Shown: piece after piece, positions 6,761-9,645 of the stretch
Numbering within the stretch: the first letter of the stretch is position 1
Layout of the letters: every line of letters starts with the position of its first letter
Origin: a virus
Lineage: Duplodnaviria > Heunggongvirae > Uroviricota > Caudoviricetes
Direction: 5' to 3' (one strand)
IMG/VR virus record: IMGVR_UViG_3300046506_000279
DNA: 11,463 nt
Program-made: the position numbers and the translations under genes
The notes under the pieces: model-generated
What the model saw: only the letters and a program-made list of their open reading frames with translations
The model's database searches: none
What the model was told of the DNA's origin: nothing

Positions 6761-6766
6761 ATTGTA
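6761..6766 (-). promoter_or_regulatory. Possible -10 element (TACAAT) for the hydroxylase/ejection operon
   Basis: TACAAT on the minus strand ~30 nt upstream of ATG 6731, in an AT-richer intergenic region (6741-6860, ~46% GC by hand count). No recognisable -35 at 16-18 bp spacing. Confidence 0.3.
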
Positions 6767-6801
6767 GGGCGTGCTACCACTTCTACACAGCAAAAGATTG
6801 C

Positions 6802-6830
6802 TTGACCCCATGGTTCACGTACGTGAGAAT
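6802..6830 (+). promoter_or_regulatory. Sigma70-like promoter P1 (TTGACC-N17-GAGAAT) driving the + strand cassette
   Basis: -35 TTGACC 6802-6807 (5/6 consensus), 17-bp spacer, -10 GAGAAT 6825-6830 (4/6), 30 nt upstream of ATG 6860. Confidence 0.7.
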
Positions 6831-6841: not shown

Positions 6842-6859
6842 TTGTTACGGGGTATTCCA

Positions 6860-7291
6860 ATGGGCCACAGGCTGCACTTCGCCGACGACAACCTGACCAT
6901 CATCACCAAACTGGCCGAGGGCAATCTCGGTGCGGTGTCGGTGCTGCTGCGCAGCTTGCAGGAGGGGGCCGCGATCGACCCCGACAACGCCTTCGGCGGC
7001 GGCGGCGCCGCGTTCGCGCTCGATACCGACGATATCTACGGCGGCCGCATCTGGCAGCTGTACAAGGATGTGTGCGGGCAGGATCTGGTGCGGATGCTGG
7101 GCGTGCTGCGCGCGGTGCAGCTGGGGCTGTTGCCGCGCGCGCGCCTGCAGGCGGCGATCGACGGCCAGCGTAAGGTGGCGCCGGCACAACACCCGCTGAC
7201 GGCGGGCGAGCTCGATGCGCTGCTGGTGCAGGTGCGCGACCGCTTGCCGCGGTTCGGGGTACAACCATCTCATCAGGCGAGGACATCATGA
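6860..7291 (+). CDS. Phage hypothetical protein (143 aa)
   Basis: ATG 6860 preferred over TTG 6842 given the promoter position; GC3 bias; globular composition (IYGGRIWQLYKDVCGQDLVRMLGVLRAVQLG, a pattern I recall from phage hypothetical proteins); stop overlaps next start. Confidence 0.8.
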   Translation: MGHRLHFADDNLTIITKLAEGNLGAVSVLLRSLQEGAAIDPDNAFGGGGAAFALDTDDIYGGRIWQLYKDVCGQDLVRMLGVLRAVQLGLLPRARLQAAIDGQRKVAPAQHPLTAGELDALLVQVRDRLPRFGVQPSHQARTS

Positions 7292-7587
7292 ATCACGCAG
7301 CACAGGGCACGGACGCCGCAGCAGTGCTGGAACAGCAGCGCGAACTCAACCGGGCGGCGCTCAAGGCCTTGAGCCTGGCGCTGGGCAATACGATGGCCGA
7401 GGCGGTGGTCCACTCGCCGCTCAGTCCACGCGGCGTGATGTATTGCGCGGCCATCGCGCTGCGCGCGTTCACCACCGGGGCGCGCGCGGTCGAAGGCTGG
7501 ACTGTGGAACAGGCCGAAGCCTACCTGGCCGAGGCGCTGGCCGATGCCAGGGCCGATCTGGCCAAATCGGACGCGCCCGCCGCATGA
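7288..7587 (+). CDS. Hypothetical alpha-helical protein (99 aa)
   Basis: GAGGA SD, ATGA overlaps at both ends, GC3 bias. Confidence 0.8.
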   Translation: MNHAAQGTDAAAVLEQQRELNRAALKALSLALGNTMAEAVVHSPLSPRGVMYCAAIALRAFTTGARAVEGWTVEQAEAYLAEALADARADLAKSDAPAA

Positions 7588-8105
7588 ACGGGGTCGAAAC
7601 ACTGCCGCTGGGGGCGCTGCTGGCGGCAATCCGCGCCGAATGCCTGGGGTCGTGGCCGGGGGCCACCGGCGAACGGCGCGCCGATGGGGTGCGGGCGCTG
7701 CTGGACAGGGTGCTGCCGGAATACGCCAGCGCGCTGGGGCTGACCCAGCAAGCGGTGCTGCAGGCGATCGAGCAGCGGCGCGATTATTCGGCCGTCAATT
7801 ACTACCAGGAGGGGAATTTCCCGCCGCTGGACGGGGTGCTGCTGTTTGGCACCGTGGCCAAGTTCAAGCACATGTTCCCGTCCGGGCGCTACCGCTGCCC
7901 GGCCTGCGACGGGGTGTCGTCCGATCCGTATGCCTGCAATGCCGGCACGGTGCGCGATGGCGAGGCGTGCGACTGGAAGGCCTACGGCTTGTTCCGCACG
8001 CTGGGCAAGGGCTTGCGGGTGATCATTACCGACAACTTCCTGACTTGTCCGGTGGTGCAGGACATCTTCATGCCGGTCGAGCGGGCTGGCGGGGGTGCGG
8101 CATGA
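7584..8105 (+). CDS. Hypothetical protein with putative Zn-binding Cys cluster (173 aa)
   Basis: True start ATG 7584 (ATGA overlap); C-x2-C-x9-C-x10-C motif (RCPACDGVSSDPYACNAGTVRDGEACDWKAYGLF). Confidence 0.8.
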   Translation: MNGVETLPLGALLAAIRAECLGSWPGATGERRADGVRALLDRVLPEYASALGLTQQAVLQAIEQRRDYSAVNYYQEGNFPPLDGVLLFGTVAKFKHMFPSGRYRCPACDGVSSDPYACNAGTVRDGEACDWKAYGLFRTLGKGLRVIITDNFLTCPVVQDIFMPVERAGGGAA

Positions 8106-8245
8106 GCGGCGCTGCTGCCAAGGCGCTGGCCTCGCTGGCCGCCAGCGCCGGCTGCGCCGCGATCGCGTGGGCCGCGCCGCCAGTGGCGATGCTGGTGGTA
8201 ATCGCGCTGCCGGTGTCCCTGTATGTGATCTGGCGCAACGCATGA
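8102..8245 (+). CDS. Small hydrophobic, probably membrane, protein (47 aa)
   Basis: ATGA overlap at 8102-8105. MSGAAAKALASLAASAGCAAIAWAAPPVAMLVVIALPVSLYVIWRNA is almost entirely apolar with a C-terminal W-R anchor. It is the C-terminal part of ORF-track entry 7544..8245. Confidence 0.7.
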   Translation: MSGAAAKALASLAASAGCAAIAWAAPPVAMLVVIALPVSLYVIWRNA

Positions 8246-8262
8246 TGGGCGCGGGAACATGA
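8242..8262 (+). other. 6-codon mini-ORF (MMGAGT*) overlapping both neighbours by ATGA
   Basis: ATG ATG GGC GCG GGA ACA TGA: start overlaps the stop at 8243-8245, and its stop (8260-8262) overlaps the ATG at 8259. Confidence 0.5.
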
Positions 8263-8780
8263 ACGATTGGCAACGGCAGTTCGCGCTCGGCGCGCAGATC
8301 AAGGAATTTCGGATCGAGCGCGGGCTGACCCAGCAACAATTGGCCACTGCGGTCGGACTCGAGCGCACCAGCATCACCAACATCGAAGGCGGCAACCAAC
8401 GGGTGGCGGTCGACATGCTGTATGCGATCGGGGCCGCGCTCGGGTACCAGGTCACGGTGGGGTTCGAAGCGCTGGCCGGGTGGCAGCCCGGCACGCGCGG
8501 CCAGCGGCAGCCGGATGCGGATGATGTCGAGCGCGTGGCGCCGTGGCCCGACTTCGCCGGCCAGCCGATCCATGTCGGCGCTGTGCTGCGCCATCCGTCG
8601 GGCGAACAGGGCACCGTGGTGTTCCTGGCCGCGGCACTCGATCCCGGCGACCAGTGGCGCATCGATTACGGCGCGGCCGGGGTGTCGCGGCTGTGCCTGC
8701 AAATCGGCGACAAGGGGCGGGCGGTGGTGGTGGCCGGGCCAGTGAATGTGAATCAATCTGAGAAAGCGGAAACCCCATGA
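8259..8780 (+). CDS. XRE/Cro-C1-type HTH protein fused to a C-terminal small beta-rich domain (173 aa)
   Basis: LGAQIKEFRIERGLTQQQLATAVGLERTSITNIEGGNQRVAVDMLYAIGAALG is a canonical HTH_3 pattern. C-terminal PWPDFAGQPIHVGAVLRHPSGEQGTVVF...WRIDYG...RLCLQIGDKGRAVVV looks like an SH3-like barrel. Confidence 0.88.
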   Translation: MNDWQRQFALGAQIKEFRIERGLTQQQLATAVGLERTSITNIEGGNQRVAVDMLYAIGAALGYQVTVGFEALAGWQPGTRGQRQPDADDVERVAPWPDFAGQPIHVGAVLRHPSGEQGTVVFLAAALDPGDQWRIDYGAAGVSRLCLQIGDKGRAVVVAGPVNVNQSEKAETP

Positions 8781-9007
8781 TTAAAGCGCGCGCCGGCAAC
8801 GTCGTCATTCTCGGGCTCGAAGCCCGCAACGTCGAGTTGCTGAAGGAGGGCAAGCCGATGTACATCAAGCTGGCCGAACTGGGCCTGCCGGATATCGGCA
8901 TTGTCATCATGTACGGCGATACCCCGGACCAGATCGTGGCGCGGATCGAGTCCACCACCGGCTTGAAGGTGCCGGAAATTGATCCGGTCAACGAGCTGCC
9001 GGTATGA
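8777..9007 (+). CDS. Hypothetical protein (76 aa)
   Basis: ATGA overlaps at both ends, GC3 bias, alpha/beta globular composition. Confidence 0.8.
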   Translation: MIKARAGNVVILGLEARNVELLKEGKPMYIKLAELGLPDIGIVIMYGDTPDQIVARIESTTGLKVPEIDPVNELPV

Positions 9008-9276
9008 GTACCGCGCTGGCCGCCCTGCGCCCGGCCTTGCTGATGCGGCTGCAGTTCATCGAATCCCTGCTCGCCCACTACGGCCACCTCAACCGCAGCG
9101 TGCTGATGGATTTCTTTGCGCTGTCGGCACCGCAGGCCACGCGCGATTTCCGCGTGTACCTGGAACTGGCGCCGGGCAATGCGGTGTACGATCCGGCGGC
9201 GCGGGTGTATCTGCGCGGGGGCGGGTTTGCGCGCCTGTGGCCGGTCGGCGATCAATCTGAACAAGGAACACCATGA
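9004..9276 (+). CDS. Stand-alone winged-HTH protein resembling the N-terminal DNA-binding domain of CapW/BrxR-type WYL repressors (90 aa)
   Basis: RLQFIESLLAHYGHLNRSVLMDFFALSAPQATRDFRVYLELAPGNAVYDPAARVYLRGGGF matches from memory the pattern RLxFI...GxxNRxxLMxxFxxSxPQAxxD...Y...APxNxxYD...xY of CapW-type wHTH domains. The ORF ends before any WYL domain. Confidence 0.75.
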   Translation: MSTALAALRPALLMRLQFIESLLAHYGHLNRSVLMDFFALSAPQATRDFRVYLELAPGNAVYDPAARVYLRGGGFARLWPVGDQSEQGTP

Positions 9277-9509
9277 GTCACGGACCCATTGAAGAACAGC
9301 ACCACCAGATGATGAACGCGGTCGCCGCAGTCTTGCGCGATGCGTTCAAGGGCTACGGCTTCTGCCTGCTGGTGTACGACCAGGACAGCAGCGACGGGCG
9401 CATGAACTACGTCTGCAATTCACGGCGCGAAGACATGATCGTCGCCATGAAGGAATTCATCGCCCACCACGAAGGGCGGGTACCAGCGGCACCGACGGCG
9501 CGCCAGTAA
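9273..9509 (+). CDS. Phage hypothetical protein (78 aa)
   Basis: AAGGA SD, ATGA overlap; GFCLLVY...GRMNYVCNSRREDMIVAMKEFI pattern that I recall from small phage proteins. Confidence 0.8.
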   Translation: MSHGPIEEQHHQMMNAVAAVLRDAFKGYGFCLLVYDQDSSDGRMNYVCNSRREDMIVAMKEFIAHHEGRVPAAPTARQ

Positions 9510-9526: not shown

Positions 9527-9555
9527 TTGACCGCCGGCACGGCTTGGCGGATACT
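9527..9555 (+). promoter_or_regulatory. Sigma70-like promoter P2 (TTGACC-N17-GATACT)
   Basis: -35 TTGACC 9527-9532, 17-bp spacer, -10 GATACT 9550-9555 (the same -10 hexamer as lambda pL); same -35 hexamer as P1. Confidence 0.65.
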
Positions 9556-9560
9556 GGCTG

Positions 9561-9645
9561 GGCTCACTTTCAGGTGCGGCACCCCTAGTCTTAGTAGTAA
9601 CTGCATTGGCCCGGCACAATACCCTTGTGCCGGGCCTTTTTTTTT
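9561..9645 (+). ncRNA. Candidate ~85-nt small RNA
   Basis: Lies between P2 and the intrinsic terminator; no SD-preceded ORF; contains small stems (GGTG-CGG-CACC) and an A/U-rich single-stranded stretch CTAGTCTTAGTAGTAACT. Confidence 0.5.
9608..9645 (+). terminator. Rho-independent terminator
   Basis: Perfect 12-bp stem GGCCCGGCACAA / TTGTGCCGGGCC, 5-nt loop TACCC, followed by T9. There is no U-tract on the minus-strand side. Confidence 0.95.

What the first reader, a model, noticed from the sequence alone, without database searches (positions are those of the whole stretch)
9004..9276. Sensor-less CapW/BrxR-like repressor domain on a phage: possible silencer of host defence operons
Seen: a 90-aa protein consisting only of a wHTH with the CapW-type signature, cleanly started and stopped by ATGA overlaps, so it is not a frameshifted remnant; no WYL/WCX coding sequence follows in the flanking ORFs. 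Established: CapW, BrxR and related WYL proteins repress CBASS, BREX and RM-associated operons via the N-terminal wHTH and are released when the WYL domain senses a ligand (ssDNA reported). Inference: a phage copy lacking the sensor could be a non-inducible repressor that keeps defence islands off, a dominant-negative partner, or a repurposed regulator of this cassette. Caveat: WYL domains supply dimerisation, so a lone wHTH may need a partner (e.g. the coupled 76- or 78-aa neighbours).
Basis: partly seen in the sequence, partly recalled or inferred. Interest (0 to 1): 0.75.

Follow-up and report, generated by a model that had tools for sequence, protein, structure and literature searches.

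The report
Phage sensor-less CapW/BrxR DNA-binding head
A complete 94.6-kb phage carries a small intact gene for only the DNA-binding head of the bacterial CapW/BrxR regulators that control anti-phage defences; it belongs to an old, apparently phage-borne and unstudied group that seems to have evolved its own way of pairing up, but which DNA it binds is still unknown.

Summary
ORF 9004-9276(+) is a real 90-aa gene with ATGA overlaps at both ends. It is only a CapW/BrxR-type winged helix (PF26109). A profile search of the PDB hits only CapW and BrxR (E 6.6e-19), and the fold matches at about 1 A rmsd. The complete phage genome has no WYL domain in any frame.

New here:
- Stand-alone forms sit on their own side of a well-supported tree branch, so they are not recent truncations.
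- In 400 bacterial genomes, 47 of 48 matches were full-length and the other was a split full-length gene. All fetched stand-alone copies lie in phage-like contigs.
- Every experimentally defined DNA-contact residue is kept.
- The five columns that best separate the two groups lie on the helix 1-2 face, which is also the predicted homodimer interface.
- The 76-aa and 78-aa neighbours are not conserved partners, and no neighbour family recurs.

The DNA target is unresolved. I found no CapW-type operator in the phage and no shared palindrome among related phages. Published non-inducible CapW mutants still protect fully, which weakens the defence-silencer reading.

My split is about 0.42 phage-own (Aca-like) regulator and about 0.22 silencer of host defence operons. 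This scan has noted the same family before on other DNA.

The parts
9004..9276 (+). Gene for the 90-aa stand-alone CapW/BrxR-type winged helix (PF26109 WHD_BrxR). It ends 10 residues after the wing.
9031..9081 (+). Helix 1 (residues 10-26). Together with helix 2 it forms the predicted homodimer face. It holds the clade-discriminating positions 17, 22, 25 and 26, and R15, the equivalent of the essential BrxR(Efer) R17.
   Evidence: PMC9122601
9127..9168 (+). Recognition helix (residues 42-55). With S41, the stretch SAPQATRD holds the equivalents of Sm CapW S42, Q45 and S47.
   Evidence: PMC9122588
9181..9216 (+). Wing: beta hairpin, residues 60-71.
6802..6830 (+). Sigma-70-like promoter (TTGACC, 17 nt, GAGAAT) heading the eight-gene plus-strand cassette that contains the wHTH gene.
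6815..6826 (.). Perfect 12-bp palindrome TCACGTACGTGA between the -35 and -10 hexamers, unique in the genome. It is a candidate operator for the wHTH or the XRE protein; which one is unassigned.
6842..8245 (+). Upstream cassette genes chained by overlaps: 149 aa (6842-7291), 99 aa (7288-7587), Cys-rich 173 aa (7584-8105) and a 47-aa membrane-like peptide (8102-8245).
8259..8780 (+). 173-aa XRE-type HTH protein with a C-terminal phrog_19209 domain. It is the second DNA-binding protein of the cassette.
8777..9007 (+). 76-aa protein of unknown function, coupled upstream. It is not conserved beside other stand-alone wHTH genes.
9273..9509 (+). 78-aa protein (phrog_35296, unknown function), coupled downstream. 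It is not conserved beside other stand-alone wHTH genes.
9608..9636 (+). Intrinsic terminator (12-bp stem followed by a T run) closing the cassette.

Best explanation
The gene encodes a signal-blind, self-dimerising operator-binding protein. It is the DNA-binding head of the CapW/BrxR family without the WYL sensor and WCX clamp, and it belongs to an old, apparently phage-borne clade. Shown: the fold, the family, retention of all tested DNA-contact residues, absence of any sensor in the genome, and membership of a separate clade. Predicted: it pairs through a hydrophobic helix 1-2 face that this clade has remodelled (L22, Y26, A/V33 and Y/F37 in place of R, E/D, D and mixed residues), so it could bind a two-fold symmetric site constitutively. 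Inferred: it is made from a host-RNA-polymerase (sigma-70-like) promoter as the seventh of eight coupled genes in an accessory cassette of an integrase-less phage. My most likely target is phage DNA. In that reading it works as a feedback or timing repressor of the phage's own accessory or early promoters, as Aca proteins do for anti-defence operons. That would fit a conserved regulator surrounded by ever-changing small genes.
For: Family and fold. DNA-contact residues (Sm CapW R32, S42, Q45, S47; BrxR(Efer) R17; PMC9122588, PMC9122601) correspond to R31, S41, Q44, T46 and R15 here, and are conserved in both clades. No WYL, integrase or resolvase in the complete, direct-terminal-repeat, 100%-complete genome. 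A separate clade of 68 short proteins that all end right after the wing. Homodimer model score 0.45 against best control 0.01; that mark was reached by 20 of 30 solved pairs and 1 of 23 single chains; run-to-run contact agreement was at least 86% and partner pLDDT at least 84. The five most clade-discriminating columns all lie in that interface (6 of the top 10, p = 0.0014). Promoter and terminator. Aca-like pattern: 18 other loci carry the gene among non-homologous small genes, and no family recurs among 31 neighbours. One natural fusion joins a CI-type XRE HTH to this wHTH (P0051).
Against: No operator could be assigned. No 10-N-10 palindrome lies in the window's intergenic regions apart from the terminator. 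No palindromic motif is shared by 11 related phage loci beyond composition or coding homology. The gene is not next to a promoter in most loci. No neighbour is a recognised anti-defence gene. The dimer model may partly echo solved CapW/BrxR dimers. The close similarity to the cellular defence regulators (43% identity, near-identical recognition helix) would also fit a host target.
Confidence: 0.42

Rival explanations
1. Silencer of host defence operons. The phage dimer occupies operators of host CapW/BrxR-type regulators. Because it has no ssDNA sensor, it keeps CBASS, BREX or RM islands repressed when the host repressor is released.
For: The homology is specifically to the defence-associated clade, and all DNA-contact residues are kept. 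Stand-alone forms were found only in phage-like contigs, while 47 of 48 matches in 400 bacterial genomes are full-length and the other is a split full-length gene. Possible targets are common: 46 of 400 genomes carry a full-length relative. The cassette has a host-type promoter and the phage has no integrase. One homologue is coupled to a phage H-NS-like gene. Derepression primes immunity against counter-defence phages in Vibrio (bioRxiv 10.1101/2025.11.13.688357).
Against: Constitutively repressing CapW mutants protect as well as wild type (PMC9122588), and loss of BrxR protein does not compromise BREX (cited there), so blocking induction gives the infecting phage little. The clade is old and separate rather than repeatedly captured from hosts. 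Candidate operators upstream of 15 full-length relatives are diverse, so one protein could fit few hosts. The host of this phage is unknown.
Confidence: 0.22
2. Host-takeover regulator of other host promoters, or of loci on rival mobile elements, unrelated to CapW/BrxR operators.
For: It sits in early-type accessory gene runs beside replication and regulator genes. Variable recognition-helix positions (42, 43, 47) and two diverged paralogues in one phage (46% identity) suggest varied specificities.
Against: There is no positive evidence for any host site. The same lack of a motif applies as for the other readings.
Confidence: 0.15
3. A DNA-binding accessory factor that is not a transcription regulator, for example in replication origin, partition or packaging.
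For: Some homologues lie next to primase, O-like initiator, RdgC and sliding-clamp genes. Small winged helices serve such roles elsewhere (pNOB8 AspA appears among weak fold matches).
Against: The nearest relatives are all transcription repressors. There is no repeat array or iteron near the gene. The contexts are not consistently replication modules.
Confidence: 0.1
4. Dominant-negative partner that poisons host CapW/BrxR dimers by pairing with their wHTH.
For: The solved CapW and BrxR dimers place their two wHTH domains side by side (PMC9122588).
Against: The helix 1-2 face differs sharply between clades (L22 against R, H/Q25 against W, Y26 against E/D, A/V33 against D). Host dimers are held by the WYL and WCX domains. 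Derepressing defence would harm the phage.
Confidence: 0.03
5. Decaying remnant of a full-length regulator.
For: Such split genes do exist in bacteria (L040: a 91-aa wHTH ORF followed by a 199-aa WYL ORF).
Against: The genome has no WYL domain in six frames. The gene is cleanly coupled at both ends, under purifying selection, and belongs to a clade of 68 representatives that end at the same boundary.
Confidence: 0.02

Closest known systems
CapW (CBASS-associated wHTH-WYL-WCX repressor; S. maltophilia 7TB6, P. aeruginosa PA17 7TB5, R. leguminosarum 9C5G)
   Same: The same winged-helix fold and family (43% identity, rmsd 0.7-3.5 A). The same DNA-binding residues (R32, S42, Q45, S47 equivalents). 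Probably dimeric binding of a symmetric site.
   Different: No WYL sensor, no WCX clamp and no crossover helix. The helix 1-2 surface is remodelled. It is encoded by a phage rather than beside a defence operon. It falls in a separate clade on the domain tree.
BrxR (BREX and defence-island regulator; E. fergusonii 7QFZ, Acinetobacter 7T8K/7T8L)
   Same: The same fold (rmsd about 1 A, 31-36% identity). The essential Arg on helix 1 (R17 in the E. fergusonii protein) is kept as R15.
   Different: The same differences as for CapW. Also, the Acinetobacter SRQQ recognition motif is replaced here by SAPQAT, which is closer to CapW.
Aca proteins (anti-CRISPR / anti-defence-associated autorepressors of phages and plasmids)
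   Same: A small DNA-binding protein that is conserved across phages while the small genes around it change. It is expressed from a strong host-type promoter.
   Different: A different DNA-binding fold family (CapW/BrxR winged helix, not the HTH families of known Aca proteins). No recognised anti-defence gene lies in the cassette and no operator has been demonstrated. Sequence relationship to Aca1-13 was not tested.
Uncharacterised phage homologues: Stenotrophomonas phage Sonora gp088 (75 aa, QYW02189.1) and a Pantoea phage vB_PagM_LIET2 97-aa protein (A0A411AW77)
   Same: The same stand-alone architecture (45% identity to Sonora gp088; the LIET2 protein is the only BFVD fold match with E <= 0.001, at E 3e-5). 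They lie in runs of small hypothetical genes.
   Different: They come from different phage types and hosts, and neither has been studied. Sonora has a culturable host, so it is the practical test case.

Membership tests
WHD_BrxR winged-helix domain (Pfam PF26109) | Sequence match to the family | tested here: met
   PF26109 is precomputed on this protein's cluster and all 8 close homologues. The Atlas cluster is 100% PF26109. The profile hits only CapW/BrxR in the PDB, E 6.6e-19. The local Pfam copy lacks the model.
WHD_BrxR winged-helix domain (Pfam PF26109) | Three-helix plus beta-hairpin winged-helix fold that superposes on solved members | tested here: met
   Model pLDDT 92.5. The top 15 PDB matches are all CapW/BrxR, with TM by query 0.68-0.81 and rmsd about 1 A.
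WHD_BrxR winged-helix domain (Pfam PF26109) | Experimentally required DNA-binding residues | tested here: met
   R15, R31, S41, Q44 and T46 align to BrxR(Efer) R17 and Sm CapW R32, S42, Q45, S47 (PMC9122588, PMC9122601).
CapW/BrxR wHTH-WYL-WCX regulators | Central WYL ligand-binding (ssDNA-sensing) domain | tested here: not met
   The protein is 90 aa. There is no WYL (PF13280) match in the neighbours or in six frames of the complete genome, and the control genomes were positive.
CapW/BrxR wHTH-WYL-WCX regulators | C-terminal WCX dimerisation domain and crossover helix | tested here: not met
   The chain ends 10 residues after the wing. All 68 members of the clade end at this boundary. The WCX models themselves were not searched against the genome.
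CapW/BrxR wHTH-WYL-WCX regulators | Encoded beside, and repressing, a defence operon | tested here: not met
   It is flanked by virion genes, a DNA methyltransferase and small unknown genes in a phage. None of the seven cassette proteins scanned has a PADLOC hit except the generic XRE HTH.
CapW/BrxR wHTH-WYL-WCX regulators | 19-27-bp palindromic operator overlapping the regulated promoter | tested here: inconclusive
   Only a 12-bp palindrome lies in the cassette promoter. There is no 10-N-10 repeat in the intergenic DNA. Candidate operators of full-length relatives are too diverse to give a search pattern.
CapW/BrxR wHTH-WYL-WCX regulators | Release from DNA on ssDNA binding | not testable with these tools
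   This needs biochemistry. With no WYL domain present, I expect no release.
Aca-type autorepressors of anti-defence operons | A small DNA-binding gene conserved among mobile elements while adjacent small genes vary | tested here: met
   18 other loci carry the gene. The 76-aa and 78-aa neighbours have no homologue in them. No family recurs among 31 neighbours.
Aca-type autorepressors of anti-defence operons | A known anti-defence gene in the same operon | tested here: not met
   No cassette protein matches a known family of that kind. The libraries used hold few anti-defence families, so this is a weak negative.
Aca-type autorepressors of anti-defence operons | Binds inverted repeats in its own promoter | tested here: inconclusive
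   There is a candidate 12-bp palindrome at 6815-6826. It cannot be assigned to the wHTH rather than the XRE protein.

The most novel reading that the evidence does not exclude
The phage protein is an uninducible stand-in for host CapW/BrxR repressors. It dimerises on its own, sits on their operators and blocks the ssDNA-triggered rise in CBASS, BREX or RM expression. That would be a transcription-level counter-defence by regulator mimicry, carried by a whole phage-borne protein clade.
Probability: 0.2. Interest if true: 0.85.

Novelty: new variant of a known kind. Interest (0 to 1): 0.55.

Why it matters
CapW and BrxR are the best-studied switches that set the expression level of bacterial anti-phage systems. 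Here the DNA-reading part of that switch is found without its sensor in a diversified clade. I found that clade only in phage-like contigs, and it has its own predicted pairing surface. This means phages have kept this module for a long time for some purpose of their own.

If the targets are host operators, this would be a new class of counter-defence that works on transcription rather than on defence proteins. It would also bear on why defence operons are inducible at all.

If the targets are phage promoters, the gene becomes a useful marker, like aca genes, for finding new accessory or anti-defence genes in the variable small ORFs beside it.

Either way the question can be tested directly with one small protein. 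A culturable relative exists: Stenotrophomonas phage Sonora gp088, whose host species includes the CapW model strain.

Tried and rejected
- **Local Pfam, PHROGs, NCBIfam and PADLOC** gave nothing for the 90-aa protein. The local Pfam copy simply lacks PF26109.
- **First fold** with 8 sequences was poor (pLDDT 64.8). It was replaced by a 68-row alignment.
- **My own error:** I translated 7631-8102 in the wrong frame. The real gene is 7584-8105 and was rescanned.
- **The 'longer' word-index search** found no fused forms. The exhaustive search did find full-length relatives.
With A1 the genome collection gave only 3 loci: two are full-length genes and the third was too short to read.
- **Neighbours as partners:** rejected. 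XRE genes lie within 3 kb in only 4 of about 17 distinct loci.
- **Operator hunting gave nothing usable:**
  - 10-N-10 palindromes.
  - The ATCA-N3-TGAT core seen upstream of four full-length relatives occurs once in the phage, outside the window.
  - Palindromes shared among 11 related loci were either G+C-driven or inside coding homology.
  - Published operator sequences are only in figures and not in the held text.
- **The conserved element** TTGTAGGG-N4-CTACCA is limited to the syntenic phage lineage, so it cannot be tied to the wHTH.
- **The capH hit** of the XRE protein is generic HTH similarity. The PDB search ranks R-M controller proteins first.
- **Host and expression data:** The host is therefore inferred only loosely from distant Bcep22-like Burkholderia and Ralstonia phages.
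- **The one apparent stand-alone copy in 400 bacterial genomes** is a split full-length gene.
- **Literature:** searches found no paper on phage-borne or WYL-less forms.

Full report
**The observation**

ORF 9004-9276 on the plus strand encodes 90 residues. Its start overlaps the stop of a 76-aa ORF, and its stop overlaps the start of a 78-aa ORF, both as ATGA. Third-position G+C is 0.78, against 0.50 for the overlapping alternative frame. dN/dS against eight phage homologues is 0.2-0.6. It is a real gene under purifying selection.

**What the protein is**

Local Pfam, PHROGs, NCBIfam and PADLOC found nothing. The local Pfam copy lacks the relevant model. The large protein database tags this protein and its eight closest relatives PF26109, named WHD_BrxR, and the ESM Atlas agrees.

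- A profile of the eight relatives hits five distinct PDB sequences, all CapW or BrxR, with the match confined to their N-terminal 80-90 residues (best E 6.6e-19).
- The single sequence gives E 2e-11 to S. maltophilia CapW.
- A model built on 68 relatives has pLDDT 92.5, with three helices and a beta-hairpin wing.
- Its 15 best PDB matches are all CapW/BrxR chains, at about 1 A rmsd and 31-43% identity. Generic winged helices follow only at E > 0.01.

The residues shown by mutagenesis to be needed for DNA binding are all present. Sm CapW R32, S42, Q45 and S47 (PMC9122588) and E. fergusonii BrxR R17 (PMC9122601) correspond here to R31, S41, Q44, T46 and R15.

**What is missing**

The chain ends ten residues after the wing. 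The genome in which the window lies is a complete 94,661-bp virus record with direct terminal repeats, CheckV completeness 100% and 68% G+C.

- It has no WYL domain in any of six frames. The control genomes were positive.
- It has only one copy of this wHTH.
- It has no tyrosine integrase or resolvase.

So this is not a split or frameshifted regulator. The phage is probably virulent. Its virion proteins are distantly related to Bcep22-like Burkholderia and Ralstonia podophages.

**Context in the window**

Minus-strand virion genes lie on one side: an SLT-domain protein, a virion structural protein, a cupin and an Asp/Asn-hydroxylase-like protein. A minus-strand DNA methyltransferase lies on the other side.

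Between them is a plus-strand cassette of eight overlapping genes encoding 149, 99, 173, 47, 173 (XRE HTH), 76, 90 (this gene) and 78 residues. It has a sigma-70-like promoter at 6802-6830 and an intrinsic terminator at 9608-9636. A perfect 12-bp palindrome, unique in the genome, lies between the two promoter hexamers.

**The family**

An exhaustive search of 1.84 billion representatives gave 536 hits. Of the top 150 plus the 8 close relatives:

- 83 proteins end within one residue of the wing: 62 are wHTH only and 21 have N-terminal extensions.
- 33 carry about 200 further residues and are full-length regulators.
- 42 are intermediate, most probably contig-end fragments.

On a maximum-likelihood tree of the domain, one starred branch (SH-aLRT 99) puts 68 short proteins on one side. 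All 75 long or intermediate proteins fall on the other side. The tree is unrooted and built on only 85 columns. Still, it argues that stand-alone forms are an old lineage and not repeated recent truncations of host genes.

**Where the stand-alone forms live**

- All 15 IMG/VR loci recovered with the close profile are stand-alone genes, in viral contigs of 5-118 kb. One contig carries two paralogues that are 46% identical.
- Four further metagenomic contigs are phage-like (portal, giant polyvalent virion protein, RdgC, sliding clamp, holin).
- Stenotrophomonas phage Sonora gp088 is a 75-aa member.
- Pantoea phage LIET2 has a 97-aa member.

In contrast, 46 of 400 bacterial genomes sampled from one class had a match. 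Of the 48 matches, 47 lie in open frames of 272-428 aa. The single 92-aa frame is followed directly by a 199-aa WYL ORF, so it is a split full-length gene.

The close-pattern scan of 185,579 species genomes gave only full-length genes where readable.

One caveat applies. Atlas clusters of short members carry 'Bacteria' labels for the few members with a record. These may be prophages or binned phage contigs. I therefore claim 'phage-borne in all contexts I read', not 'absent from cells'.

**How a lone head could work**

I compared 68 stand-alone and 75 long or intermediate sequences column by column.

- The DNA-facing residues are conserved in both groups: R15, R31, S41, Q44, S/T46, D48, Y52, N59, Y62, K/R67 and Y69.
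- The five most discriminating columns are 22 (L against R), 25 (H/Q against W), 33 (A/V against D), 26 (Y against E/D) and 17 (R against E).
- The stand-alone group also gains basic residues at 47, 71 and 77.

A two-copy complex prediction passed. The score was 0.45 against a best control of 0.01. That mark was reached by 20 of 30 solved pairs and by 1 of 23 single chains. Contact agreement between runs was at least 86% and partner pLDDT at least 84.

Its interface is helix 1 (residues 17-26) and helix 2 (residues 32-39). All five top discriminating columns, and 6 of the top 10, lie in that interface (hypergeometric p = 0.0014; rank test p = 9e-4).

The pass may partly reflect memory of the solved CapW/BrxR dimers, in which the two heads lie side by side. 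The residue statistics do not depend on that model. I read this as the clade replacing a polar surface with a hydrophobic self-pairing one. In the full-length proteins I infer, without having checked it on coordinates, that this surface faces the partner's WYL domain or head. The change would compensate for the lost WYL/WCX clamp.

**Partners**

Neither has any homologue in the 18 other loci. Among 31 immediate neighbours of stand-alone genes, no PHROG or Pfam family occurs twice. XRE-HTH genes lie within 3 kb in only 4 of about 17 distinct loci. One natural fusion, P0051, joins a CI-type XRE HTH to this wHTH. Other N-terminal extensions look like zinc ribbons or charged helices.

**The target remains unresolved**

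- The window's intergenic DNA has no 10-N-10 inverted repeat apart from the terminator.
- Upstream of 15 full-length relatives I found candidate operators, but they differ: an ATCA-N3-TGAT core in four loci, CCAGATAGT-type arms in two, and others. No family-wide pattern can be projected onto the phage.
- The ATCA-N3-TGAT core occurs once in the phage, outside the window.
- No palindrome is shared by 11 related phage loci beyond G+C-driven or coding matches.
- A conserved element, TTGTAGGG-N4-CTACCA, at 6762-6779 is limited to the syntenic lineage.

**Weighing the readings**

For silencing of host defence operons:
- the homology is specific to the defence-regulator clade;
- the DNA-contact residues are retained;
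- the distribution is phage-borne;
- the cassette has a host-type promoter;
- full-length relatives are common in bacteria;
- one homologue is coupled to a phage H-NS-like gene.

Against it:
- CapW mutants that repress constitutively protect against phage as well as wild type, and loss of BrxR protein does not abolish BREX (PMC9122588). In Vibrio, derepression is not needed to stop the first infection (bioRxiv 10.1101/2025.11.13.688357). Locking the operator would therefore give the infecting phage little.
- The clade is old rather than repeatedly captured.
- Operators are diverse.

For a phage-own role:
- small DNA-binding proteins in phage accessory regions usually regulate phage promoters;
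- a conserved regulator among ever-changing small genes is the Aca signature;
- a CI-type fusion exists.

Against it: no operator was found, and no known anti-defence gene lies nearby.

My split is 0.42 phage-own, 0.22 host-defence silencer, 0.15 other host-directed regulation, 0.10 non-transcriptional DNA binding, and 0.05 for a dominant-negative partner or a remnant.

**Novelty**

The domain family is catalogued (PF26109) and automatic names already call such proteins 'BrxR wHTH domain-containing'. Full-text searches found no paper on phage-borne or WYL-less forms.

This scan has noted the same family on other DNA: e1-5409607, e1-5348542, e1-5355626 and e1-5321161. Those reports reached the same 'target unknown' verdict.

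I class it as a new variant of a known kind.

Noticed in passing
window 8259-8780: The 173-aa XRE-HTH protein of the same cassette has capH (the CBASS CapH repressor model) as its best PADLOC hit (E 7.7e-12). R-M controller C proteins are its best PDB matches, and 7t5u, a 69-aa 'helix-turn-helix domain-containing protein', also appears at E 7e-4. All matches cover only the generic HTH. Its C-terminal half matches phrog_19209 (unknown function). So the cassette holds two heads that resemble defence-operon regulators, though this one may be generic.
   Followed up: partly
window 8745-8780 and 9244-9276: The XRE protein and the wHTH protein end in similar tails (…NQSEKAETP and …DQSEQGTP). Both share the DNA word TCAATCTGA about 20 nt before the ATGA overlap with the next small gene. 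This looks like a duplicated junction or coupling module.
   Followed up: no
window 6762-6779; L003 7444-7461; L018 2073-2090: A conserved intergenic element, TTGTAGGG-N4-CTACCA, is unique in the 94.6-kb genome and shared by the syntenic phages only. On the minus strand it contains TACAAT, a likely -10 for the virion operon, within an imperfect inverted repeat.
   Followed up: partly
L023 6702-7249: In another phage-like contig the stand-alone wHTH gene is translationally coupled directly after a 100-aa H-NS-like gene (PF00816), which encodes a DNA silencer.
   Followed up: no
P0051 (145 aa); P0019, P0050; P0023, P0056: Members of the stand-alone clade with N-terminal additions: a CI-type XRE HTH fused to the wHTH (P0051), CxxC zinc-ribbon-like heads (P0019, P0050) and charged helical heads (P0023, P0056). 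The wHTH is always at the C-terminal end.
   Followed up: partly
L040 4463-5391 (minus strand): A bacterial genome carries the regulator split into a 91-aa wHTH ORF and a 199-aa WYL ORF. This is a broken or two-part full-length gene, and a useful contrast to the phage gene.
   Followed up: partly
L028, L029, L033, L034 upstream regions: Candidate operators of four full-length relatives share an ATCA-N3-TGAT core inside 19-25-bp palindromes. L035 and L036 share GTCCAGATAGT-N6-ACAATCTGGAC. These are computed candidates and are not validated.
   Followed up: partly
L004 1599-1820 (-) and 5001-5261 (+): One 70-kb viral contig carries two diverged stand-alone paralogues (46% identity) with different recognition helices (…SMPQASLD… and …GPAQASRD…).
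   Followed up: partly
window 7584-8105: A 173-aa Cys-rich protein (CPAC…C…C motifs) with only a weak sub-threshold NCBIfam hit (CxxC_VVA0879, E 0.0012). Function unknown.
   Followed up: no
window 9527-9555: A second sigma-70-like site (TTGACC, 17 nt, GATACT) lies between the last cassette gene and the terminator, with no ORF after it. Another first-stage finding in this scan already noted it as a possible small RNA.
   Followed up: no
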